Below are positions 7,777-63,997 of a DNA stretch of 64,000 nucleotides, piece by piece (the first letter of the stretch is position 1; every line of letters begins with the position of its first letter). Source of the DNA: Candidatus Kuenenbacteria bacterium (GTDB taxonomy: Bacteria > Patescibacteriota > Patescibacteriia > UBA2196 > GWA2-42-15); the NCBI GenBank assembly GCA_012797775.1, contig JAAZOM010000022.1:1241-65240 (forward strand), in the 5' to 3' direction. The position numbers and the translations under genes were made by a program. The notes beneath the pieces are model-generated. The model saw only the letters and a list, made by a program, of their open reading frames with translations, made no database searches and had not been told where the DNA came from.

Positions 7777-9498
7777 ATGCTTAACTGGCTCAAAAAATAC
7801 AAAACAGCCATATTTTTAGGCTTATTTTGCTTGGCCTTTTTTTGTATTTACGCTCATTTCAATCTACTGGTTATGCACCCAGACGGGGCAGGGGACAATC
7901 CAAAATTTTCTTCCCCGGACGAGACCGCCAATTATTTTTGGGCCAAAAGACTGGCCCAAGGCCAGCCGCTTTATTATTTTGAAGAGTTAAATGGTCCAGG
8001 CAACAACCTTATCCACCCGAGAAGCATCAATGTTATTGATGGCAAAAACGTACCCGGCTCTTTTCTAGGTTTGATTTTTATTTATGGTTCCCTCGCCAAA
8101 ATCCTCGGCCTCGGAGTCGTTCCCTATTTAACGCCATTTTTTTCCGCGCTCGGGATTTTCTTTTTTTATTTATTACTAAAAAAGATTTTTAATTCTACCC
8201 CTGTCGCTCTTATTCCCGCAACGCTCTTGGCTTTTACTCCAGCTTGGTTTTATTATTCCTGCCGAGGTATGTACCATAACGTACTGTTCACCAGTTTGTT
8301 GATTATGGGGGTTTATTTTTTATGGAAGGTTCTGGCGGAAGCTCCTAGCCCAAATTCCAAATCCCAAGCCCCAAATCAAAAATCAAAAATCAACAATCCA
8401 AAACTAATGTTATATTTCCTCTCCGGTCTTTTGATCAGCTTCGCTCTATTCACTCGCACTTCAGAAATTGTTTGGGCCGCCTTAACTATTTTTTTTATTT
8501 TCATTTTTCACTTTAAAAGGATCTATTGGCCCGGTTTTCTTTTATTTTTGGCCGCTGGAACGATCCCCATTATCGCCTTATTCTATCACAATCAGATTCT
8601 TTACGGTTCACTTATCTCTGCTGGTTATCGCGCCGTGAGTGATGCTGTATCTATTGGCGGCTTGGCTAGTGCTGGTGTTTTATTCCAGATTTTTGTCACC
8701 CCCTTTGGCATTCATCCCGGTTCCATTCTCACCAACGGTTTCAATTATCTTTATCAGCTTTTTCCGATTTGGGGCGCACTTTATTTTCTTGGCGCTTTCC
8801 TCTTCGCGATTCTCCCGACTCATATTATTAAAATCAATTATAAAAAAAGAATCGCTTATCTCGCTTATTGCTTACTGCTCACTGCTTATTTATTGATTTT
8901 TTATGGTTCTTGGGCGATCACTGATCGCATTGACCGGGAGACTCTCTCGCTTGGTACTTCTTATCTGCGTTATTGGCTGCCGATTTATATTGTTACCTTG
9001 CCGTTTGTCGCTACTATTATCTGGCAGCTCGCCAATTTTTTGACTCCGCTCCAAAAAAGAAAAATTTTTTATCAGTCAATTTTTTCTTTTGCCGCTTGCC
9101 TTTGCATATTTATGCCCACGATCAATGTGCTTTTGCGCCAGAGTGACGAAAGTTTGTTTCTTTTAAAAAACCTAAACGAAACTCGTGTTAAATCAGCCAT
9201 TGTTAATAAAATGGTCGGGCCAGAAGATATCGTCCTCGTCTACAAACAGGCGGATAAAATATTTTTCCCCGAACGCACTCTTTTAATTACCGAACTAGCT
9301 GTCCCTATTGATTATGAATCAGTCGCCACCTTGTCAAAAATCAGAGATGTCTATTATTATTCCTACGCCAATCCCAGAGACGTTGATTCCATCTCGCGCT
9401 TGCAATTTGCTCCATATGGATTGGAAATTGTCGAGGGGCAAAAGGTTTTTGGCAATGATAGACTTTATAAGATTAAAAAAATTAGACAAATACAGTAA
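7777..9498 (+). CDS. Polytopic membrane glycosyltransferase, GT-C fold, ArnT/PMT-like (GT39/GT83).
   Basis: More than 10 TM helices. The first extracytoplasmic loop carries the HP..DE motif (HPDGAGDNPKFSSPDETANYFWAKRL) typical of the ArnT/PMT family. Confidence 0.45.
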   Translation: MLNWLKKYKTAIFLGLFCLAFFCIYAHFNLLVMHPDGAGDNPKFSSPDETANYFWAKRLAQGQPLYYFEELNGPGNNLIHPRSINVIDGKNVPGSFLGLIFIYGSLAKILGLGVVPYLTPFFSALGIFFFYLLLKKIFNSTPVALIPATLLAFTPAWFYYSCRGMYHNVLFTSLLIMGVYFLWKVLAEAPSPNSKSQAPNQKSKINNPKLMLYFLSGLLISFALFTRTSEIVWAALTIFFIFIFHFKRIYWPGFLLFLAAGTIPIIALFYHNQILYGSLISAGYRAVSDAVSIGGLASAGVLFQIFVTPFGIHPGSILTNGFNYLYQLFPIWGALYFLGAFLFAILPTHIIKINYKKRIAYLAYCLLLTAYLLIFYGSWAITDRIDRETLSLGTSYLRYWLPIYIVTLPFVATIIWQLANFLTPLQKRKIFYQSIFSFAACLCIFMPTINVLLRQSDESLFLLKNLNETRVKSAIVNKMVGPEDIVLVYKQADKIFFPERTLLITELAVPIDYESVATLSKIRDVYYYSYANPRDVDSISRLQFAPYGLEIVEGQKVFGNDRLYKIKKIRQIQ

Positions 9499-9563
9499 CT
9501 TGTAACTCGCAAAAAGTAAAATTATCCCTTGTGCTAGTTACTAATTACGAGTTACTAGTTACC
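9494..9563. repeat. Dispersed palindromic repeat, copy A: AGTAACTTGTAACTCG, spacer, then CCTTGTGCTAGTTACTAATTACGAGTTACTAGTTACC.
   Basis: Shares about 35 of 37 nt with the copy at the window end (63956-63995). It overlaps the TAA stop of the upstream gene. Confidence 0.7.
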
Positions 9564-10193
9564 AAAAGAATTATTATGCCCATCTATAAATACATAAGAT
9601 TTATCTTAATTGCCGCCCCCATCATCTTTCTGGGCTTTTTAATATACAAAGACCTTGTCCCTAGTGGCCGCTTGATTACTAACTATGATTTTTGTGATTT
9701 AAATCCGTTCGCTTCTTCCTGGTCGCCGCATGGCCGGGTTTTGGCTATAGAAAAAATTAAAATGGGCGGCGACAAATATTGCCAACAAAAAATGGTCATT
9801 GACCCGGTTTATTTTGACATCCGCCTGCCACAAAGATTTAATGAGGCCAGGCTGACCGTCTGGTATCAAAAAAAATCTGAAACAAAATTGCAAATTGGTC
9901 CAGCCATTGATTTATCCGCCTGGCAGTGGCAATTAAAAGATATTAATTATATCCGCACCGAAAACAATTGGCAGGTCGGCGTCGCTGATTATAATATTCA
10001 ATCTTCCAAGCTAGATAATAATCGTTTGCGCTTTCTAGTTTCTTCGCCAAATATGGACACCTCTAGGCAGGAGATTATTTTTAAAAAAATAGAAATAGAA
10101 TTTATAAAAAAACCGATTACCGCTTGGCCGGATTTTATCGAAAGAGCAAAAGAATTCATCTTGTTTTCTAGATTAAAAATTATTTTTCAGTAA
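9531..10193 (+). CDS. Hypothetical protein (the real start is probably the ATG at 9576). The ORF is bracketed by repeat copies A and B.
   Basis: ORF with an N-terminal TM segment. The 5' end of the track ORF is repeat-encoded (LVTNYELLVT). Confidence 0.4.
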   Translation: MLVTNYELLVTKRIIMPIYKYIRFILIAAPIIFLGFLIYKDLVPSGRLITNYDFCDLNPFASSWSPHGRVLAIEKIKMGGDKYCQQKMVIDPVYFDIRLPQRFNEARLTVWYQKKSETKLQIGPAIDLSAWQWQLKDINYIRTENNWQVGVADYNIQSSKLDNNRLRFLVSSPNMDTSRQEIIFKKIEIEFIKKPITAWPDFIERAKEFILFSRLKIIFQ

Positions 10194-10210
10194 CTCGTAA
10201 CTAGCTACTA
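10188..10210. repeat. Dispersed palindromic repeat, copy B (partial): CAGTAACTCGTAACTAGCTAC.
   Basis: It overlaps the TAA stop of the preceding ORF and resembles the left end of copies A and D. Confidence 0.5.
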
Positions 10211-11178: not shown

Positions 11179-11661
11179 ATGATTGACGGCGTAAAAATAA
11201 AAGAATTAAAGATCCACCCAGATGTGCACAAAGAAGGCGAAGAAGTGGTCAAAGAACCGGGTTTTTTGGCCGAGGTTTTACGCGCCGATGAAGGGCTTTT
11301 AAAAAAATTCGGCCAAAGCATTTTCACTCTAGCTTATCCAGGTACGATCAAGGCTTTCCATTGGCACAAGCTCCAAGATGATTTATGGTTTTTTGCTACC
11401 GGCAAAGTTATTGTGGTCTTGCATGATCTGCGGGACGATTCACCGACCAAGGGTGAGACCCAGGTTATAGGAGCCGGAGCAGGGGATTATAAATTAATTT
11501 TAATTCCTGTTGGCGTAGCCCATGGCTACAAAGTGCTTGGTGATGAGTCAGCTATGCTTTTTTATCACGTGACCGAAGTTTATAATAAGGACAATCCTGA
11601 CGAAGAACGGATTCCCTACGATGATCCCCAGATTGGTTTTGATTGGGGAAAATACCAATAG
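11179..11661 (+). CDS. dTDP-4-dehydrorhamnose 3,5-epimerase-like cupin (RmlC family sugar-nucleotide epimerase).
   Basis: HWHKLQDDLWFFATGKVIVVLHDLRDDSPTKG and a later GVAHGY. Confidence 0.5.
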   Translation: MIDGVKIKELKIHPDVHKEGEEVVKEPGFLAEVLRADEGLLKKFGQSIFTLAYPGTIKAFHWHKLQDDLWFFATGKVIVVLHDLRDDSPTKGETQVIGAGAGDYKLILIPVGVAHGYKVLGDESAMLFYHVTEVYNKDNPDEERIPYDDPQIGFDWGKYQ

Positions 11662-13936: not shown

Positions 13937-14998
13937 ATGCGGCTTTTAATGCTTACAAGGAAAGTTGACAGTCAAGACAGTCGGGCCAGTTTTGTTTCTG
14001 ACTGGCTTTTGGAATTAGCCCAAAACCTAGAAAAATTAGTAGTTATTTGCCAAGAAAAAGGCGATACCAGCGGCTTACCGGAAAACATTGAAATCTTTTC
14101 ATTGGGCAAAGAATTAGGCCATTCAAAAATCAAGCAATTTTTCCGCGCGCAGAAAATATTATTCAAGCTTGTCAAAAAAAGTGACGGCGTCTTGGCCCAC
14201 CAGATGCCTATTTATGGGGTTCTTGCTGGGCCTGCCAGTTGGCTGTCTCACAAAAAATTAATTCAATGGTATGCTCATGGTACTGTTGACTGGCGCTTAA
14301 AGTTGGCGAATTTTTTCGTGACCGAATTTGTCACCTCGTCAGCCGATGGTTTTCGAATGCCAACCAAAAAACCAGTGCGGGTTATTGGGCAGGGTATCAA
14401 CACTAATAAATTCAAAATTCAAAATTCAAAACTCAAAGCAAATGAAGAATTTAATATTTTGACTATTGGTCGTATTTCACCGAGTAAAGATATTGAATCC
14501 ATGATCAAGGCTGTTTATGAATTAAAAGAACAGAATGTCGATAATATAAAATTAACTATCATTGGCGCACCAGCTACGGCCGCTGGTTTTCATTATTCCC
14601 AAAATCTTCAGTCTATGGTGGAGAACATGAATCTGGGCAACCAAATCAATTTTTTTGGCGGCATTCCTCACGCTGAAACAATAAAGCATTTAGCTCAAGC
14701 TGATTTATTTTTAAATTTGAGTGATACAGGTAGTTTGGACAAAACCGTTTTGGAAGCTATGGCTGCTGGTTGCCTAGTCTTGACGAGCAATATTGCTTAC
14801 AAAAATATTTTGCCGCCTGAATTATTCACCACCAAAGACAACCCCCAAACCTTGACCCAAAAGATTAAAGAATTGATGGGCTTATCAGAACAAAAAAAAG
14901 AGGAGTTTAAAAAACAATTACGCGATGAAGTCCTCGCCCATCACAACTTGGCCGACTTTGCCAAAAAAATTGTAGGATTATATAGTAATTTATCCTGA
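13937..14998 (+). CDS. Glycosyltransferase family 4.
   Basis: GT4 C-terminal core: GRISPSKDI...EAMAAGCLVLTS. Confidence 0.65.
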   Translation: MRLLMLTRKVDSQDSRASFVSDWLLELAQNLEKLVVICQEKGDTSGLPENIEIFSLGKELGHSKIKQFFRAQKILFKLVKKSDGVLAHQMPIYGVLAGPASWLSHKKLIQWYAHGTVDWRLKLANFFVTEFVTSSADGFRMPTKKPVRVIGQGINTNKFKIQNSKLKANEEFNILTIGRISPSKDIESMIKAVYELKEQNVDNIKLTIIGAPATAAGFHYSQNLQSMVENMNLGNQINFFGGIPHAETIKHLAQADLFLNLSDTGSLDKTVLEAMAAGCLVLTSNIAYKNILPPELFTTKDNPQTLTQKIKELMGLSEQKKEEFKKQLRDEVLAHHNLADFAKKIVGLYSNLS

Positions 14999-56122: not shown

Positions 56123-57565
56123 ATGCCCCAAAAATTTGCCACTCGTTTTGCCCCCAGCCCCACCGGGGACTTGCATATTGGCGGTTTGCGTACCGCTCTT
56201 TTCGCCTATCTTTTTGCCAAAAAAAATCAAGGCAAATTTTTCTTGCGCATTGAGGATACGGACCAGACGCGATACAAGGAGGGGAGTGTTGAGGGCATTA
56301 TCGCCGGTCTAAAATGGGCTGGGCTTCATTATGATGACGAAATAGTTTATCAATCAAAAAGAACAGAAATTTATCAAAAGCATGCGGCCGAATTGGTAGA
56401 AAGTGGGCACGCTTATCATTGTTTTTGCACCGCTGACGATCTGGCCAGCATGCGCCAAGAACAAACGGCTGATGGTAATACGGTCACGCGCTATGATCGT
56501 CGTTGTCTAAACCTCACACCCGAGGAAGTCAAATCAAGATTAGACTCCGGCGTGCCACACGTTATCCGTCTCAAGGTGCCGAGTGGTGAAACAGAATTTA
56601 CCGATTTAATTCGCGGCCAAGTTAAAATTAATAATGCTGATATTGATGACCAGATTCTCCTCAAGTCAGATGGCTTTCCGACTTACCACCTGGCCAATGT
56701 CATAGACGACCACGAGATGGGCATCACCCACGTCATCCGTGCTGAAGAGTGGCTACCCTCCACACCCAAACACATTATTCTTTACCAGATGTTTGGCTGG
56801 GAGATCCCCGAGTTTGTTCACCTGTCAATGATTCTCGCTCCAGACAGAACCAAGCTGTCCAAACGCCATGGTGCCACTTCTGTTTTGGAGTTTAAAAATC
56901 TTGGTTATTTACCCGAGGCAGTAGTCAACTACATTGCCCTTCTCGGCTGGAATCCCGGTACGGAACAGGAAATTTTTTCTCTGAAAGAATTGGAACATGA
57001 ATTTGATCTCGCCAAAGTCAATAAAGCCGGCGCGATTTTTGATATTGAAAAACTCAACTGGATGAACGGCCACTATATCCGGCAGAAAAGTTTGGATGAG
57101 CTCACTCATTTATGTATTCCTTGTCTGGATAATTATTTACAAACCAATTACCAGCTACAAGTTACTAGTTATTCTTTTGAATTTCTGAAATCGATCGTCG
57201 GCCTAGAACAAGAGCGTCTCAAGAAGCTCTCTGAAATAGGGGAGCGAACCAAATACTTTTTTACCCGCCCCACAGTTGACCCCAAAACGTTAGTCTGGAA
57301 AAAATCCACGCCCGCAGAAACCCAAGAGAGATTGAAATTTTTGGTAGAATTTCTCGCCACGATTCCTGAAGAAAACTGGACCAGAAACACCCTGGAAGAA
57401 ATTTTAATTGACGAAATAAAGCGCCGTGGCTTTGGCAATGGCGACACCTTGTGGCCGATGCGCGTGGCCCTATCCGGCGAAGAAAAGTCTCCCTCGCCTT
57501 TTGAAATCGCCGAAGTTTTGGGGAAAGAAGAGACGCTAAAGAGATTAAAATTGATCCAAGGATAA
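56123..57565 (+). CDS. gltX: Glutamate--tRNA ligase.
   Basis: RFAPSPTGDLHIGGLRTA (HIGH) and KLSKR (KMSKS). Confidence 0.9.
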   Translation: MPQKFATRFAPSPTGDLHIGGLRTALFAYLFAKKNQGKFFLRIEDTDQTRYKEGSVEGIIAGLKWAGLHYDDEIVYQSKRTEIYQKHAAELVESGHAYHCFCTADDLASMRQEQTADGNTVTRYDRRCLNLTPEEVKSRLDSGVPHVIRLKVPSGETEFTDLIRGQVKINNADIDDQILLKSDGFPTYHLANVIDDHEMGITHVIRAEEWLPSTPKHIILYQMFGWEIPEFVHLSMILAPDRTKLSKRHGATSVLEFKNLGYLPEAVVNYIALLGWNPGTEQEIFSLKELEHEFDLAKVNKAGAIFDIEKLNWMNGHYIRQKSLDELTHLCIPCLDNYLQTNYQLQVTSYSFEFLKSIVGLEQERLKKLSEIGERTKYFFTRPTVDPKTLVWKKSTPAETQERLKFLVEFLATIPEENWTRNTLEEILIDEIKRRGFGNGDTLWPMRVALSGEEKSPSPFEIAEVLGKEETLKRLKLIQG

Positions 57566-57663: not shown

Positions 57664-57927
57664 TTATGATTTGGACGTCTGCTCTTTGGCTTCTTTATTT
57701 TTGAAATAAAGAGTCGAAGCCACTGTGCCAAGAGCACAGCCGAGAGCATAGAGTATTACCAATTGCCAGTTGCTAATATCATTGACTATTGTCTCGAGCA
57801 CATAGTACCAGATAAAAATATTGACAATCGTCACGGCTCCACTCGCCAAGATCTGGTTTTTGGTAACTACTTTGGTCCAAGTAGTGACAATCAGCATTTC
57901 CAAAATGCCCACAAAAAATAGCATCAT
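57664..57927 (-). CDS. Small hypothetical membrane protein.
   Basis: 87-aa ORF with two TM helices. Confidence 0.3.
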   Translation of the reverse strand: MMLFFVGILEMLIVTTWTKVVTKNQILASGAVTIVNIFIWYYVLETIVNDISNWQLVILYALGCALGTVASTLYFKNKEAKEQTSKS

Positions 57928-58212
57928 AATAATCTCTTTTATGGCGCTTATTTGCCACTTAGTTTATAAAAAGAACGACCTTTTTATTCTCCAGAAAAAA
58001 ATCAACCAATTAATTACTAACGGGTTGATTTTTAACTGTTTTTCCATTATACTCCGAAAAAGCCCTTTTGTCAACCACAAAAAACCTGTCATTGCGAGGA
58101 GCCAGAGCGACGAAGTTGCCTCATCTTCCCGATAGCTTTTTCCCCCTATTTTTGCTAGTATTAAATTAGTTCTATTCGTATATTTGTATAATATTTGTAA
58201 ATTTGTAGTGGC

Positions 58213-59310
58213 ATGAAAATTTGCCTCATCAATAATCTCTACCCACCCTACAATCGCGGTGGCGCTGAGCGGGTAGTAGAAAACCAAGCCCAAGAATTTG
58301 TGACCGCTGGCCATGAGGTTTTTATTATTACCTCGAGGCCGATACAAGACCGCTCTCAAGCAGGCTCAGAAAAAATTAAAGTCTATCGCTTTTTTCCTCC
58401 CAATATCATTTCCTATTACCACCTGCAAAAATTACCCTTTCCGCTCCGCGCCCCGTGGCGTCTCTTTGACACTTTTAATTTTCACTCCTATTTTAAAATC
58501 AAAAAAATATTGCAAACAGAAAAGCCAGATATTGTCTATGCCCACAACCTAACAGGCCTTGGTCTTCTTATTCCGCGTTTAATTAAAAAATTGAAAATAA
58601 AATATACTCAAACCATGCATGATGTGGTCGGTATCCGCCCGAGCGGCCTTTTGCTTTATGGTCAGGAAAAAGAAAATATTTTTATCAAATTTTGGACCAG
58701 CTTGAATCGCTGGCTGTATAGCTCTCCAGACAAGGTTATCTTTCCGTCAGTATGGCTAAAAAAATATTATGAAGGGCATAAATTCTTCCCGCATGGCCCA
58801 AAAGAGGCTGCACAGAATTTCTACTTGCCATCAGCCAATCTATTGTTGAATAAGAAATTAAAATCCCCAGACAAAGTCACTTTTCTTTACATCGGTCAAA
58901 TCGAAAGCCACAAGGGCATTCTATTTTTAATCCAAACCCTAAACGAGTTACTAGTTACTAGTTATGAGTTACTCATTCTGGGTTCTGGCTCCCAGCTTGA
59001 ATCAGCCAAAGACCTAGCCAAAAGTAATTCACAGATCAAATTCCTCGGTTATCAGCCCAAAGAAAAGATTCAAGAATATTTAAAACAAGCCGACTACACC
59101 ATTGTCCCGTCTCTATGTTATGAGGCCTCACCTACTGTTATTTTTGAGAGCTTGGCTGTTGGTGTGCCTGTTATCGCTTCAAATCTCGGCGGCATCCCCG
59201 AATTAATCAGGGTAGGGGAGAAGGGTTATTTGTTTGAGCCGGGTAATAAAAAGCAGTTGTTAGAAATTATTGAAGATATTTATGCCACAAACCAAAATGC
59301 AAAAAATTAA
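58213..59310 (+). CDS. Glycosyltransferase family 4. It contains a dispersed-repeat-derived segment in-frame.
   Basis: N-terminal NRGGAERVV and C-terminal EASPTVIFESLAVGVPVIAS. Confidence 0.65.
   Translation: MKICLINNLYPPYNRGGAERVVENQAQEFVTAGHEVFIITSRPIQDRSQAGSEKIKVYRFFPPNIISYYHLQKLPFPLRAPWRLFDTFNFHSYFKIKKILQTEKPDIVYAHNLTGLGLLIPRLIKKLKIKYTQTMHDVVGIRPSGLLLYGQEKENIFIKFWTSLNRWLYSSPDKVIFPSVWLKKYYEGHKFFPHGPKEAAQNFYLPSANLLLNKKLKSPDKVTFLYIGQIESHKGILFLIQTLNELLVTSYELLILGSGSQLESAKDLAKSNSQIKFLGYQPKEKIQEYLKQADYTIVPSLCYEASPTVIFESLAVGVPVIASNLGGIPELIRVGEKGYLFEPGNKKQLLEIIEDIYATNQNAKN
58942..58976. repeat. Dispersed palindromic repeat, copy C, embedded in-frame in the GT4 CDS: ACGAGTTACTAGTTACTAGTTATGAGTTACTCAT, encoding ELLVTSYELL.
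   Basis: The same GTTACTAGTTAC units as copies A and D. Confidence 0.55.
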
Positions 59311-63016: not shown

Positions 63017-63883
63017 ATGCCCTTTCTTATTGACAGCCACGCCCATGTGAATTTCAACGCTTTCAAAGACGACGGAGAAGAAATTATCCGTCGTTCTTTG
63101 ACTAAAGGTATCTGGATGGTCAATGTCGGTTCACAGCATGATACCTCCAAACGCGCTTTGGAAATTGCCAATCAATATGACGAGGGCGTTTATGCCGCTA
63201 TTGGGCTACACCCGATTCATTTATCGCACACCGAAGTTGACGAAGAAGAAATTCATTTTCAGACCCGTGAGGAACAGTTTGATGAAAATAAATATCAAGC
63301 TCTAATTGACGCTGACAAAAATCATAAAATCGTGGCCGTAGGGGAGATTGGCCTTGATTATTTTCATATTCCGGCAGAGATGACCCTGGAAGAAGTGAGA
63401 AATCGTCAAGCACCAGATTTTATCAAACAGCTACATTTTGCCGCCAAAAATAATCTGCCAGTGATTATCCACTGCCGCGATTCTGAGCGTGGCAAATTTG
63501 ACGCTTATCGAGATACTTTGGACATCCTGAAAGCAGAAATAAAAAATGGTTTGCAACTACGGGGCATCAAGCACAGCTTTGACGGCGATCTAAAGATTGC
63601 CGAAGAGTTTTTTCAATTGGGATTTTACATCAGCTTTACCGGCGTGATTACTTTTGGCAAAAATGCTGAAGATTTGCGCCAGCTAGTCAAAGCTTTACCC
63701 TTAGATAAAATATTAGTAGAAACCGATTGCCCCTATTTGGCTCCGGCCCCCCATCGCGGCGAGCGCAATGAACCAAGTTTTGTCGAATTTACCGCCCAAA
63801 AAATCGCGGAATTAAAAAATATTTCTTTGGATAAGGTTGCTGAAACTACTATGGAAAATACAAAAGATTTATTTAAATTTTAG
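63017..63883 (+). CDS. tatD: TatD-family metal-dependent hydrolase (DNase).
   Basis: IDSHAHV, VGEIGLDY, IIHCRD and ETDCPYLAP. Confidence 0.85.
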   Translation: MPFLIDSHAHVNFNAFKDDGEEIIRRSLTKGIWMVNVGSQHDTSKRALEIANQYDEGVYAAIGLHPIHLSHTEVDEEEIHFQTREEQFDENKYQALIDADKNHKIVAVGEIGLDYFHIPAEMTLEEVRNRQAPDFIKQLHFAAKNNLPVIIHCRDSERGKFDAYRDTLDILKAEIKNGLQLRGIKHSFDGDLKIAEEFFQLGFYISFTGVITFGKNAEDLRQLVKALPLDKILVETDCPYLAPAPHRGERNEPSFVEFTAQKIAELKNISLDKVAETTMENTKDLFKF

Positions 63884-63887
63884 GTCG

Positions 63888-63997
63888 AGTAACTTGTAAC
63901 TAGTAACTCGTAATTAGTAAATGGTAGAATTTTTATTTTAAATAAAATAACAGTCCTTGTGCTAGTTACTAGTTACGAGTTACTAATTACTGCCTTG
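63888..63997. repeat. Dispersed palindromic repeat, copy D. It has left and right arms of GTAACT/AGTTAC-type units around a 27-nt AT-rich spacer and is truncated by the window end.
   Basis: The right arm CCTTGTGCTAGTTACTAGTTACGAGTTACTAATTAC matches copy A at about 35 of 37 nt. Confidence 0.7.

What the first reader, a model, noticed from the sequence alone, without database searches (positions are those of the whole stretch)
58213..59310. Repeat-derived sequence in-frame inside a GT4 glycosyltransferase.
Within GT4 gene 58213-59310, the DNA ACGAGTTACTAGTTACTAGTTATGAGTTACTCAT at 58942-58976 is a near-tandem of the dispersed palindromic units. It is translated as ..LNELLVTSYELLILGSG.. and sits where GT4 enzymes normally have a short variable linker before the conserved hydrophobic-x-I-V-G-D-G strand. 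Total length looks normal, so the repeat appears to have replaced rather than extended the linker. This is reminiscent of Rickettsia palindromic elements that insert in-frame into ORFs. It may instead reflect recombination between repeat copies at gene ends.
Basis: partly seen in the sequence, partly recalled or inferred. Interest (0 to 1): 0.55.

Follow-up and report, generated by a model that had tools for sequence, protein, structure and literature searches.

The report
Translated seven-base repeat inside a glycosyltransferase
A short run of four seven-base DNA repeats lies in frame inside a sugar-transferring enzyme gene of a tiny uncultured bacterium, and relatives carry a run at the same spot whose copies have changed together, so this piece of protein evolves like a microsatellite.

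Summary
Window 58945-58974 is GAGTTAC TAGTTAC TAGTTAT GAGTTAC TC, read in frame as ELLVTSYELL in a GT4 glycosyltransferase of a Candidatus Kuenenbacteria genome. The same heptamer builds intergenic hairpins at 9.5 kb and 63.9 kb.

The Rickettsia-like insertion reading is not supported. The segment is one direct array, not a palindrome. It adds no residues compared with aperiodic distant orthologs. Every Kuenenbacteria-clade ortholog recovered has a heptamer array at the same codons.

Unit sequence differs by lineage: NAGTTAC, GAATTAN, TCATTGC, ACTTTAT, AAACTAC. Units match 5.9/7 within an array but 3.9/7 between lineages, which is concerted evolution. GluRS (gltX, 57146-57173) shows the same pattern.

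Period-7 arrays are specifically enriched:
- 8 in this window, against 0 for periods 6 and 8-15.
- 0 in shuffles and Markov simulations, and 0 in 100 kb of E. coli.
- 7.4 per 100 kb in other Patescibacteria loci.

Best reading: an old coding heptanucleotide microsatellite, kept in frame and at fixed length by selection. I infer that misaligned-strand conversion homogenises it. The loop also accepts small hairpin insertions in relatives.

This is a new variant of a known kind (bacterial heptamer simple repeats) and moderately interesting.

The parts
58213..59310 (+). GT4 glycosyltransferase gene (365 aa) that contains the array
   Evidence: ORF. Pfam PF13439 and PF00534 hits. An identical protein is named 'glycosyltransferase family 4 protein [Candidatus Kuenenbacteria bacterium]'. 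The E-x7-E motif E304..E312 is readable in the translation.
58945..58974 (+). In-frame heptamer array GAGTTAC TAGTTAC TAGTTAT GAGTTAC (+TC). It covers codons 245-254 (ELLVTSYELL), which form the loop after the helix and the first residues of the next beta-strand.
   Evidence: for the sequence. AF2 model (pLDDT about 94 here). The third unit boundary reads TAT GAG where a perfect array would give an in-frame TAC TAG stop (read directly from the sequence).
56123..57565 (+). gltX (glutamyl-tRNA synthetase) gene carrying a second in-frame array of the same unit
   Evidence: ORF. The ortholog in L161 carries PF00749 and PF19269. tblastn orthologs.
57146..57173 (+). In-frame heptamer array AATTACC AGCTACA AGTTACT AGTTATT in gltX (peptide NYQLQVTSYS)
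   Evidence: Orthologs L086 ([AG]ATTACN x5) and L004 (ACTTACN x4-5) have arrays at the same codons, and unit position 2 is fixed differently in each lineage.
63886..63993 (.). Intergenic hairpin element: an inverted pair of heptamer arrays (GTAACTN x5 and NAGTTAC x4) around an AT-rich loop, directly after the TatD stop codon
   Evidence: RNA fold -36.9 kcal/mol, z = -6.0.
9495..9563 (.). Intergenic hairpin element of the same heptamer. The left arm contains the TAA stop (9496-9498) of the upstream gene. The right arm is 94% identical to 63955-63990.
   Evidence: (family D6). Fold z = -3.65.
10190..10203 (-). Two-unit copy of the heptamer (GTAACTC GTAACTA on the + strand) that supplies the TAA stop (10191-10193) of ORF 9531-10193
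8347..8405 (+). Another in-frame period-7 array (ATCCCAA / ATCAAAA units) in membrane-protein ORF 7777-9498, encoding SPNSKSQAPNQKSKINNPK
8858..8891 (+). In-frame period-7 array (TGCTYAY units) in the same membrane-protein ORF
14401..14443 (+). In-frame period-7 array (AATTCAA units) in the interdomain linker of a second glycosyltransferase (ORF 13937-14998), peptide NKFKIQNSKLK

Best explanation
The segment is a coding heptanucleotide microsatellite. It is a four-unit tandem array of the 7-nt unit NAGTTAC that is part of the functional GT4 reading frame. Because 7 is not a multiple of 3, successive units are read in all three phases (GAG-TTA-C|TA-GTT-AC|T-AGT-TAT|GAG-TTA-C). They encode the loop after the first helix of the C-terminal Rossmann domain and the start of the next strand.

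The array is not a recent insertion. It was already present in the common ancestor of the Kuenenbacteria-clade orthologs, and it has kept its position, length and frame since then.

Within each lineage the units are kept alike (concerted evolution). A base change is either erased or spreads to all units, so the encoded peptide changes as a block: ELLVTSYELL, ELRITNYELW, SSLLIAHCSLL, TLYLIHYTLC.

The most likely mechanism is inferred, not shown. I propose transient one-unit misalignment of the strands during replication or repair, followed by mismatch correction and realignment. That is length-neutral conversion between neighbouring units. Selection then removes frameshifting changes of one or two units, removes in-frame TAG codons, and preserves the hydrophobic and aromatic positions encoded by the conserved TTA core (L246, V/I248, Y251, L253).

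The array is one instance of a genome-wide, period-7-specific excess of short tandem arrays in this and other Patescibacteria. These arrays occur between genes (there often as inverted pairs forming hairpins, sometimes supplying stop codons) and in permissive loops of conserved proteins, including the presumably essential GluRS (essentiality rests on general knowledge and was not tested).
For: Shown:
1. The array, its frame and its excess over chance.
2. The same codons carry a period-7 array in every Kuenenbacteria-clade ortholog recovered, with 16-20 of 21 period-7 matches. Most distant Patescibacteria orthologs score 4-13 with the same 24-residue spacing.
3. Mean unit identity is 5.9/7 within arrays. 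Between lineages it is 3.9/7 at the same unit position and 3.9/7 at different positions. Up to 4 of 7 unit positions are fixed differently in at least 3 of 4 units.
4. In L001 the edge units keep the ancestral G (position 3) and A (position 6) while the inner units are converted.
5. An NJ tree built without the array columns puts all array-bearing genes in one clade, with aperiodic outgroups. NAGTTAC/RAGTTAC is scattered over the tree, which suggests it is ancestral. The window's sister L161 (84.5% identical) has G to A in all four units.
6. Array DNA identity to the window is bimodal relative to the 90-nt flanks. It is 0.93-0.96 against about 0.72 for L168 and L081, and 0.43-0.54 against 0.62-0.84 for L084 and L001.
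7. Arrays extend into the next 7 nt without any length change in L002, L081 and L168.
8. gltX shows the same behaviour at one site. The N-terminal loop of GT4 orthologs is a third such site.
9. Period 7 alone is enriched: 8 arrays against 0 in the window, 13 against 0-2 in relatives' loci, and 62 against 0-36 in other Patescibacteria loci (36 for period 4, 16 for period 5, at most 10 for periods 6 and 8-15). E. coli has 0 in 100 kb.
10. The AF2 model places codons 245-254 in a confident loop-plus-strand region.

From the literature: heptamer simple repeats are over-represented in many bacteria, and polymerase slippage has been proposed as the cause (PMC4692102; PMC4679880).
Against: - No conversion or slippage event was observed directly.
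- Arrays are identical in near-identical contigs from three to five independent samples for each of four lineages (L087-91; L003/L082/L083; L084-86; L161-163). So there is no sign of ongoing instability.
- Four imperfect units is short for classical slippage.
- GAATTAN occurs in two separate branches of the tree. That needs either parallel homogenisation or recombination. The NJ tree has no support values.
- Wholesale unit changes such as TCATTGC or ACTTTAT could instead be replacement by ectopic conversion from another array. I could not test this on short metagenomic contigs.
- Whether the ancestral array arose in place or by replacement from a dispersed element is unresolved.
- All sequences come from metagenome assemblies.
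Confidence: 0.7

Rival explanations
1. A dispersed repeat element, or one arm of the intergenic hairpin element, was copied into the gene. This would be by insertion plus a compensating deletion or by ectopic gene conversion, as in Rickettsia palindromic elements. The gene merely tolerates it.
For: In this genome the GT4 array, the gltX array and the intergenic hairpins share the unit AGTTACN, and this unit is specific to this genome among 81 loci. The same loop does accept foreign short elements in relatives:
- a 31-nt GC hairpin in L164;
- a 60-nt element with TCCCCC/GGGGGA ends in L004/L092;
- a perfect palindrome in L014/L044;
- a hairpin-rich insertion at the gltX site in L090.
Against: - No residues are added relative to aperiodic orthologs.
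- There is no second arm and only a weak fold.
- The non-heptamer prefix CCTTGTGC of the dispersed element is absent.
- The array is present in all clade orthologs, not sporadically.
- In the lineage of L086 (the L084-86 contigs) the gltX array and the GT4 array have different units, and likewise in L004. So arrays are not being overwritten from one genomic master copy.

An ancient seeding event of this kind in the clade ancestor cannot be excluded.
Confidence: 0.15
2. The array is a phase-variation (contingency) switch. Gain or loss of one heptamer shifts the frame and turns this surface-polysaccharide glycosyltransferase off and on, as in Haemophilus and Neisseria glycosyltransferases.
For: Tandem repeats whose unit is not a multiple of three, inside glycosyltransferase genes, are the classical design of such switches (established knowledge; heptanucleotide examples in PMC2651432 and PMC8262952 were listed). 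Two other arrays in the window lie in a second glycosyltransferase and in a large membrane protein.
Against: - Only two adjacent units are identical.
- All orthologs, and all independent assemblies of the same lineage, are in frame with the same unit number.
- The same kind of array lies in gltX and TatD, where on/off switching is implausible.
- The array encodes conserved hydrophobic core positions.
Confidence: 0.05
3. The heptamer arrays are kept because the DNA or the mRNA is a binding site. The binder would be, for example, a protein that reads one heptamer per domain, such as cold-shock or S1-type OB folds proposed for TAACTGA repeats. The coding copies would then be functional regulatory sites and not just tolerated repeats.
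For: - Array DNA is more conserved than flanking coding DNA in L081, L168 and L088, including synonymous positions.
- Intergenic copies lie directly at gene boundaries.
- An analogous proposal exists for TAACTGA repeats upstream of start codons (PMC4679880).
Against: - Unit sequences differ freely between lineages and between loci of one genome. A sequence-specific reader would not tolerate this.
- The extra conservation is equally expected from homogenisation within the array.
- No candidate binder was identified.
Confidence: 0.1

Closest known systems
Over-represented heptanucleotide simple sequence repeats of bacteria (Mrazek et al. 2007 as cited in PMC4692102; GGGAATC repeats of Xanthomonas and GGGGA(T/C)T repeats of Nostoc)
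   Same: Both are tandem 7-nt units of a few copies. Period 7 is specifically enriched over neighbouring periods. Most copies are intergenic, some as inverted pairs able to form hairpins. Unit and length vary between related genomes at the same intergenic site.
   Different: The known cases are described as intergenic. Here arrays lie in frame inside conserved enzymes, are held at fixed length, and can be followed at the same codons across a whole clade with unit turnover. The units here are AT-rich and cannot form G-quadruplexes.
TAACTGA heptamer direct repeats of Beggiatoaceae, cyanobacteria and Bacteroidetes (MacGregor 2015, PMC4679880)
   Same: Both are heptamer arrays of 2-6 units near gene starts. 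'Forward' copies carry stops in all frames and overlap upstream stop codons, as at 9496-9498 and 10191-10193 here. 'Reverse' copies can be translated inside ORFs: TCAGTTA gives LSVISYQ, and TAGTTAC here gives LVTSY.
   Different: In that study the in-ORF copies are mostly at protein ends or in hypothetical proteins, and one unit sequence is shared across phyla. Here units are specific to lineage and locus. Similarity of the 114 array units to TAACTGA is no better than random. The arrays sit in structured interior segments of GT4 and GluRS. Orthologous concerted evolution was not among the passages of that paper returned by my term search.
Rickettsia palindromic elements (in-frame selfish insertions; Ogata et al. 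2000, recalled from memory and not read here)
   Same: Repeat-family DNA is translated as part of functional, conserved proteins at structurally permissive sites.
   Different: Rickettsia palindromic elements are 100-150 bp palindromic elements that add residues and are present or absent between orthologs. This segment is a 28-30 nt direct array, is length-neutral, and is present in all clade orthologs. The true analogues of those elements here are the small hairpin insertions in relatives (L164, L004, L014/L044, and L090 in gltX).
Cyanobacterial STRR heptamers with small dispersed repeats embedded in them (Mazel 1990; Elhai 2008; recalled from memory; Calothrix heptamers are mentioned in PMC4692102)
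   Same: Heptamer arrays serve as landing sites for very small hairpin elements, as in L164 and L004, where a hairpin element sits at or inside the array.
   Different: The cyanobacterial cases are intergenic. Here both the array and the embedded element are translated.

Membership tests
GT4 (GT-B fold) glycosyltransferase | N-terminal Glyco_transf_4 domain plus C-terminal Glycos_transf_1 domain | tested here: met
   PF13439 at 7e-20 (residues 16-194) and PF00534 at 1.1e-30 (residues 214-360), both above the gathering scores. The AF2 model has two Rossmann-like halves, pTM 0.86. The profile hits solved GT4 enzymes: WlaC/PglA 6eji, BshA 5d00 and GlgA.
GT4 (GT-B fold) glycosyltransferase | E-x7-E motif in the C-terminal domain | tested here: met
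   E304-ASPTVIF-E312 is readable in the translation. E304 is invariant and E312 nearly invariant in the alignment.
Heptanucleotide simple sequence repeat (long-unit SSR) | Head-to-tail copies of a 7-nt unit, at least 3-4 units | tested here: met
   Four units, with 18 of 21 period-7 matches. Unit list.
Heptanucleotide simple sequence repeat (long-unit SSR) | Excess over chance that is specific to period 7 | tested here: met
   8 arrays in the window against 0 for periods 6 and 8-15. Shuffles, Markov simulations and 100 kb of E. coli all give 0.
Heptanucleotide simple sequence repeat (long-unit SSR) | Unit-number polymorphism between strains | tested here: inconclusive
   No length differences among near-identical contigs from 3-5 samples in four lineages. 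Between lineages there are 4 to about 7 units (L002, L081, L168, L167) and longer variants in L046 and L098. No read-level data were available.
Rickettsia-palindromic-element-like in-frame mobile palindromic element | Element is an inverted repeat able to fold as a hairpin | tested here: not met
   There is a single direct array. RNA fold z = -1.96, with 8 of 200 shuffles folding as well. No inverted partner lies within the gene.
Rickettsia-palindromic-element-like in-frame mobile palindromic element | Insertion lengthens the host protein relative to orthologs without it | tested here: not met
   There are 24 residues between KG and GxG in the window and in aperiodic orthologs such as L006, L007, L010 and L019.
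Rickettsia-palindromic-element-like in-frame mobile palindromic element | Patchy presence or absence among close orthologs | tested here: not met
   All 12 distinct Kuenenbacteria-clade orthologs have an array at these codons.
Rickettsia-palindromic-element-like in-frame mobile palindromic element | Other copies of the same repeat family dispersed in the genome | tested here: met
   AGTTACN arrays lie at 9495-9563, 10190-10203, 57146-57173 and 63886-63993.
Phase-variable contingency locus | Long, near-perfect repeat tract with frameshifting length variants between isolates | tested here: not met
   Only two identical adjacent units. All orthologs and replicate assemblies are in frame. The same kind of array occurs in gltX.
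TAACTGA-type heptamer repeats | The unit is TAACTGA or TCAGTTA | tested here: not met
   The unit is AGTTACT (TAACTAG on the other strand), which differs at 2 positions. Across 114 arrays the distance distribution to TAACTGA equals the random expectation.

The most novel reading that the evidence does not exclude
Patescibacteria may have a period-7-specific, length-neutral homogenising process, or a selected DNA- or RNA-level role for heptamer arrays. This process would operate inside the coding sequence of conserved genes, including presumably essential ones. Short structured protein segments (loop plus strand in GT4, a linker in GluRS, loops in TatD and membrane proteins) would then be encoded by microsatellites read in three phases. 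They would evolve by whole-array unit replacement over family-level divergence. That would be a previously undescribed mode of protein-sequence evolution in very small genomes.
Probability: 0.3. Interest if true: 0.75.

Novelty: new variant of a known kind. Interest (0 to 1): 0.58.

Why it matters
Repeats whose unit is not a multiple of three are expected to be excluded from coding sequence, or to act as on/off switches there. Here a heptamer array sits stably in the interior of conserved enzymes. It is read in all three phases, and its copies change together.

A single DNA-level event can therefore rewrite three to nine residues at once. DNA-level homogenisation can also override ordinary codon-by-codon divergence, and it can make synonymous sites look constrained.

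This has practical consequences:
- It affects alignment, phylogeny and dN/dS analyses of candidate-phyla-radiation genes.
- It explains odd recurring peptides such as LVTSYEL and LRITNYEL in unrelated proteins.
- It identifies permissive loops that also collect small hairpin elements.
- It offers a tractable natural system for asking why 7 is the favoured repeat length in bacteria.

Tried and rejected
- A single-sequence phmmer search against the PDB found nothing at 1e-10. The profile search worked.
- DNA for P0005, an ortholog with a 14-residue insertion at the loop, could not be fetched because the sample file is too large.
- Rfam had no family in 56-64 kb.
- There is no promoter-like or terminator-like site at the array.
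- I first read the L004 insertion as a small transposable element with a 7-8 bp target duplication. Recounting showed a 60-nt element with 6-nt inverted ends at a unit boundary, and no duplication is needed. I dropped the model in which arrays are footprints of transposon target duplications, because it predicts growth in length and cannot explain equal-length arrays with different units.
- I tested whether the unit is related to the published TAACTGA repeat or is favoured across Patescibacteria. It is not: units are diverse and the distances match random expectation.
- I looked for intergenic AGTTAC arrays in relatives' flanks and found none in 11-18 kb per locus. Genome-wide sharing of the unit could therefore only be shown for this window.
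- P0009/L167 looked like a clean seven-residue (three-unit) duplication. It is five residues longer, so it is not a simple three-unit step.
- Six literature searches found no description of coding heptamer arrays in candidate phyla radiation bacteria. Absence from that library does not prove it has never been described.
Full report
**1. What is in the sequence**

The ORF 58213-59310 (+) encodes a 365-residue protein with the two Pfam domains of family-4 glycosyltransferases. An identical protein is on record as a GT4 protein of a Candidatus Kuenenbacteria bacterium, a member of the Patescibacteria or candidate phyla radiation.

The quoted string is present at 58943-58976, one base after the stated start. 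It is read as NELLVTSYELLILGSG. It is not a near-tandem of palindromic units. It is a plain head-to-tail array of four heptamers, GAGTTAC TAGTTAC TAGTTAT GAGTTAC, at 58945-58972.

The same unit, AGTTAC plus one variable base, builds two intergenic hairpin elements made of inverted arrays, at 9495-9563 and 63886-63993. It also builds a two-unit copy at 10190-10203 and a second in-frame array in the neighbouring glutamyl-tRNA synthetase gene at 57146-57173 (peptide NYQLQVTSYS).

The 12-mer AGTTACTAGTTA with at most one mismatch occurs 12 times against 0.1 expected.

A perfect (TAGTTAC)n array has TAG in every frame. In both genes the unit boundary that would give an in-frame TAC TAG reads TAT GAG or TAT TCT instead. 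This is read directly.

**2. Where it sits in the protein**

An AlphaFold2 model built on 36 orthologs has mean pLDDT 88.5 and about 94 in this block. It has helix 236-244, loop 245-250 and strand 251-256. The array covers codons 245-254, so it encodes the loop and the first four residues of the strand that leads into the conserved GxG.

A profile search of solved structures aligns this stretch with the equivalent helix-loop-strand of WlaC/PglA, where the loop is three residues longer.

The spacing from the conserved KG to GxG is 24 residues here and in distant orthologs without any periodicity.

**3. Orthologs: the decisive comparison**

I collected DNA of orthologs from genome and metagenome collections. 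Every ortholog of the Kuenenbacteria clade has a period-7 array at exactly these codons, but the unit differs by lineage:

| Locus | Array | Note |
|---|---|---|
| L081 | GAGTTAC TAGTTAC TAGTTAC GAGTTAC | same peptide as the window |
| L168 | GAGTTAC TAGTTAC TAGTTAC GAGTTGC TAGTTCT | same peptide as the window |
| L161 | GAATTAA GAATTAC GAATTAT GAATTAT | closest relative; peptide ELRITNYELW |
| L002 / L003 | GAATTAN x4-5 | |
| L001 | TCGTTGC TCATTGC TCATTGC TCATTAC | peptide SSLLIAHCSLL |
| L087-L091 | AAGTTAC GAGTTAC GGATTAC GAGTTAC | |
| L084-L086 | ACTTTAT ACTTAAT ACATTAT ACTTTAT | |
| L004 / L092 | CAAACTA x4 | interrupted by a 60-nt element |

These arrays score 16-20 of 21 period-7 matches. 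Most distant Patescibacteria orthologs score 4-13 of 21.

Mean identity between units of one array is 5.9/7. Between lineages it is 3.9/7, whether the same or different unit positions are compared. Up to four of seven unit positions are fixed differently in at least three of four units.

In L001 the first unit still has the ancestral G at position 3 and the last unit still has the ancestral A at position 6. Lagging edge units of this kind are typical of tandem-array homogenisation.

A neighbour-joining tree made without the array columns groups all array-bearing genes, with aperiodic outgroups. NAGTTAC/RAGTTAC is spread across the tree, so it is probably ancestral. The window's sister L161 (84.5% identical) differs by G to A in all four units.

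Array DNA identity to the window is either well above the flanks or well below them:
- L081: 0.96, and L168: 0.93, against flanks of about 0.72.
- L001: 0.54, and L084: 0.43, against flanks of 0.62-0.84.

In L002, L081 and L168 the array has taken over the next seven bases with no change in length.

Protein-level selection cannot produce 7-nt periodicity across three reading phases. This is therefore a DNA-level process, filtered by selection on the protein. The unit core TTA is the most conserved part. Read in the three phases it gives the conserved L246, V/I248, Y251 and L253.

**4. The same thing elsewhere**

In gltX, the orthologous codons carry:
- A[AG]TTACN-type units in the window;
- [AG]ATTACN x5 in L086;
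- ACTTACN x4-5 in L004.

Unit position 2 is fixed as G, A and C in these three, respectively. L003 has a different unit (AATCAGA). L161, L002 and L001 have no array. L090 has a hairpin-rich insertion.

A third recurrent site is the N-terminal loop of GT4 orthologs. L008 has AAAAGTC x5 and L021 has CAAAATC. L040 has GAATTAC x4, giving KLRITNYEL, the same peptide that L161 has in the other loop.

The window has further in-frame arrays in a membrane protein (8347-8405 and 8858-8891) and in a second glycosyltransferase (14401-14443). In L085 TatD has GGATTAC x4, which the window's TatD lacks.

**5. Period 7 is special**

All counts use one detector (four units, at least 80% matches, lower periods excluded):

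| Sequence set | Period-7 arrays | Comparison |
|---|---|---|
| Window | 8 | 0 for periods 6 and 8-15; 0 in shuffles and in third- and fifth-order Markov simulations |
| Relatives' loci (94 kb) | 13 | 0-2 for other periods |
| 842 kb from 42 other Patescibacteria species | 62 (7.4 per 100 kb) | at most 1.2 per 100 kb for periods 6 and 8-10 |
| E. coli (100 kb) | 0 | |

Across 1.31 Mb there are 114 arrays. Of these, 46% lie wholly inside long open frames, which make up 86% of the bases. Arrays are therefore enriched between genes but are far from excluded from genes.

Units are diverse, and the AGTTACT family is peculiar to this genome.

**6. Explanation and rivals**

The best-supported reading is an old coding heptanucleotide microsatellite under concerted evolution. 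The step I infer but did not observe is length-neutral conversion through transient one-unit misalignment and repair. Published work has proposed polymerase slippage for the general excess of heptamers in bacteria (PMC4692102; PMC4679880).

*Insertion of a palindromic element, as in Rickettsia.* Three of four defining features fail: no palindrome, no added length, and no patchy distribution. Real small hairpin insertions do occur at this very loop in relatives L164, L004/L092 and L014/L044. An ancient seeding of the array from a dispersed element cannot be excluded.

*Phase variation.* This is unlikely. Only two adjacent units are identical. All orthologs and replicate assemblies are in frame. 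GluRS has the same feature.

*A binding-site function.* The extra DNA conservation in some lineages and the gene-boundary position of intergenic copies hint at this. The free variation of units argues against it.

**7. Comparison with what is known, and novelty**

Heptamer simple repeats, their over-representation, inverted pairs and turnover between related genomes are known for intergenic DNA of Xanthomonas and Nostoc.

TAACTGA repeats are known to overlap stop codons and occasionally to be translated in the reverse orientation.

The new points here are:
- in-frame arrays in structured interior segments of conserved enzymes;
- persistence at the same codons over a clade whose proteins have diverged to about 60% identity;
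- block-wise unit replacement.

I found no description of this for candidate phyla radiation bacteria. I classify it as a new variant of a known kind.

**8. Limits**

- All sequences come from metagenome assemblies, and many contigs are short.
- The tree has no support values.
- There are no read-level data.
- The origin of the ancestral array is unresolved.

Noticed in passing
window 57146-57173 (gltX, 56123-57565): There is a second in-frame array of the same heptamer (AATTACC AGCTACA AGTTACT AGTTATT, peptide NYQLQVTSYS) in glutamyl-tRNA synthetase. Orthologs L086 and L004 have arrays at the same codons with different units. L161, L002 and L001 have none. L090 has a hairpin-rich insertion there.
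   Followed up: yes
window 8347-8405, 8858-8891 (ORF 7777-9498) and 14401-14443 (ORF 13937-14998): Three more in-frame period-7 arrays with other units: ATCCCAA/ATCAAAA, TGCTYAY and AATTCAA. They lie in a large membrane protein and in the interdomain linker of a second glycosyltransferase.
   Followed up: partly
window 9495-9563, 10190-10203, 63886-63993: The intergenic heptamer hairpins sit exactly at gene boundaries. The TAA stops of ORF 7777-9498 (9496-9498) and ORF 9531-10193 (10191-10193) lie inside heptamer units. Both right arms share the prefix CCTTGTGC and are open from a GTG (9531 and 63961), reading LVT(N/S)YELL, the same peptide as in the GT4. They might therefore be partly translated.
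   Followed up: partly
window 58083-58125: The sequence CATTGCGAGGAGCCAGAGCGACGAAGTTGCCTC lies just upstream of the GT4 gene. Its two halves (CATTGCGAGGAGC and AGCGACGAAG) recur in many Patescibacteria loci, and in L131 and L146 they also lie directly upstream of the GT4 ortholog. It looks like a widely dispersed small element.
   Followed up: partly
L164 1000-1060; L004 10739-10798 (= L092 3120-3179); L014/L044 about 11233-11265: Small hairpin elements are translated in frame at the same GT4 loop in relatives. L164 has a 31-nt GC hairpin (CCCGCCTCGC...GCGAGGCGGG) inside the heptamer array. L004/L092 has a 60-nt element with TCCCCC/GGGGGA ends at a unit boundary. L014/L044 has a perfect 16-nt-arm palindrome (GACACTCGGTGTCTTGCAAGACACCGAGTGTC).
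   Followed up: partly
GT4 orthologs, nt about 127-175 of the gene: L008, L021, L040 and L037 (locus coordinates about 10127-10175); L013 is weaker: The N-terminal loop (residues about 44-57) is another hot spot for heptamer arrays in distant Patescibacteria lineages. Close relatives of the window (P0002-P0007) carry repeat-like peptide insertions there (for example SPYQGEA...PEAEGY and LHVARGAKMSQLGSKLNLEP), and the window's protein does not.
   Followed up: partly
L085 5518-5557, compared with window about 63536-63570 (TatD): TatD of a relative carries GGATTAC x4 in frame (QVTDYGLRITG). The window's TatD is one residue shorter there and was not flagged as an array. This is an example of gain or loss of a coding array between relatives.
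   Followed up: partly
window 58046-58074 (- strand): A perfect sigma-70-type consensus promoter (TTGACA, 17 nt, TATAAT) points toward the small DUF5698-like gene at 57664-57927 on the minus strand.
   Followed up: no
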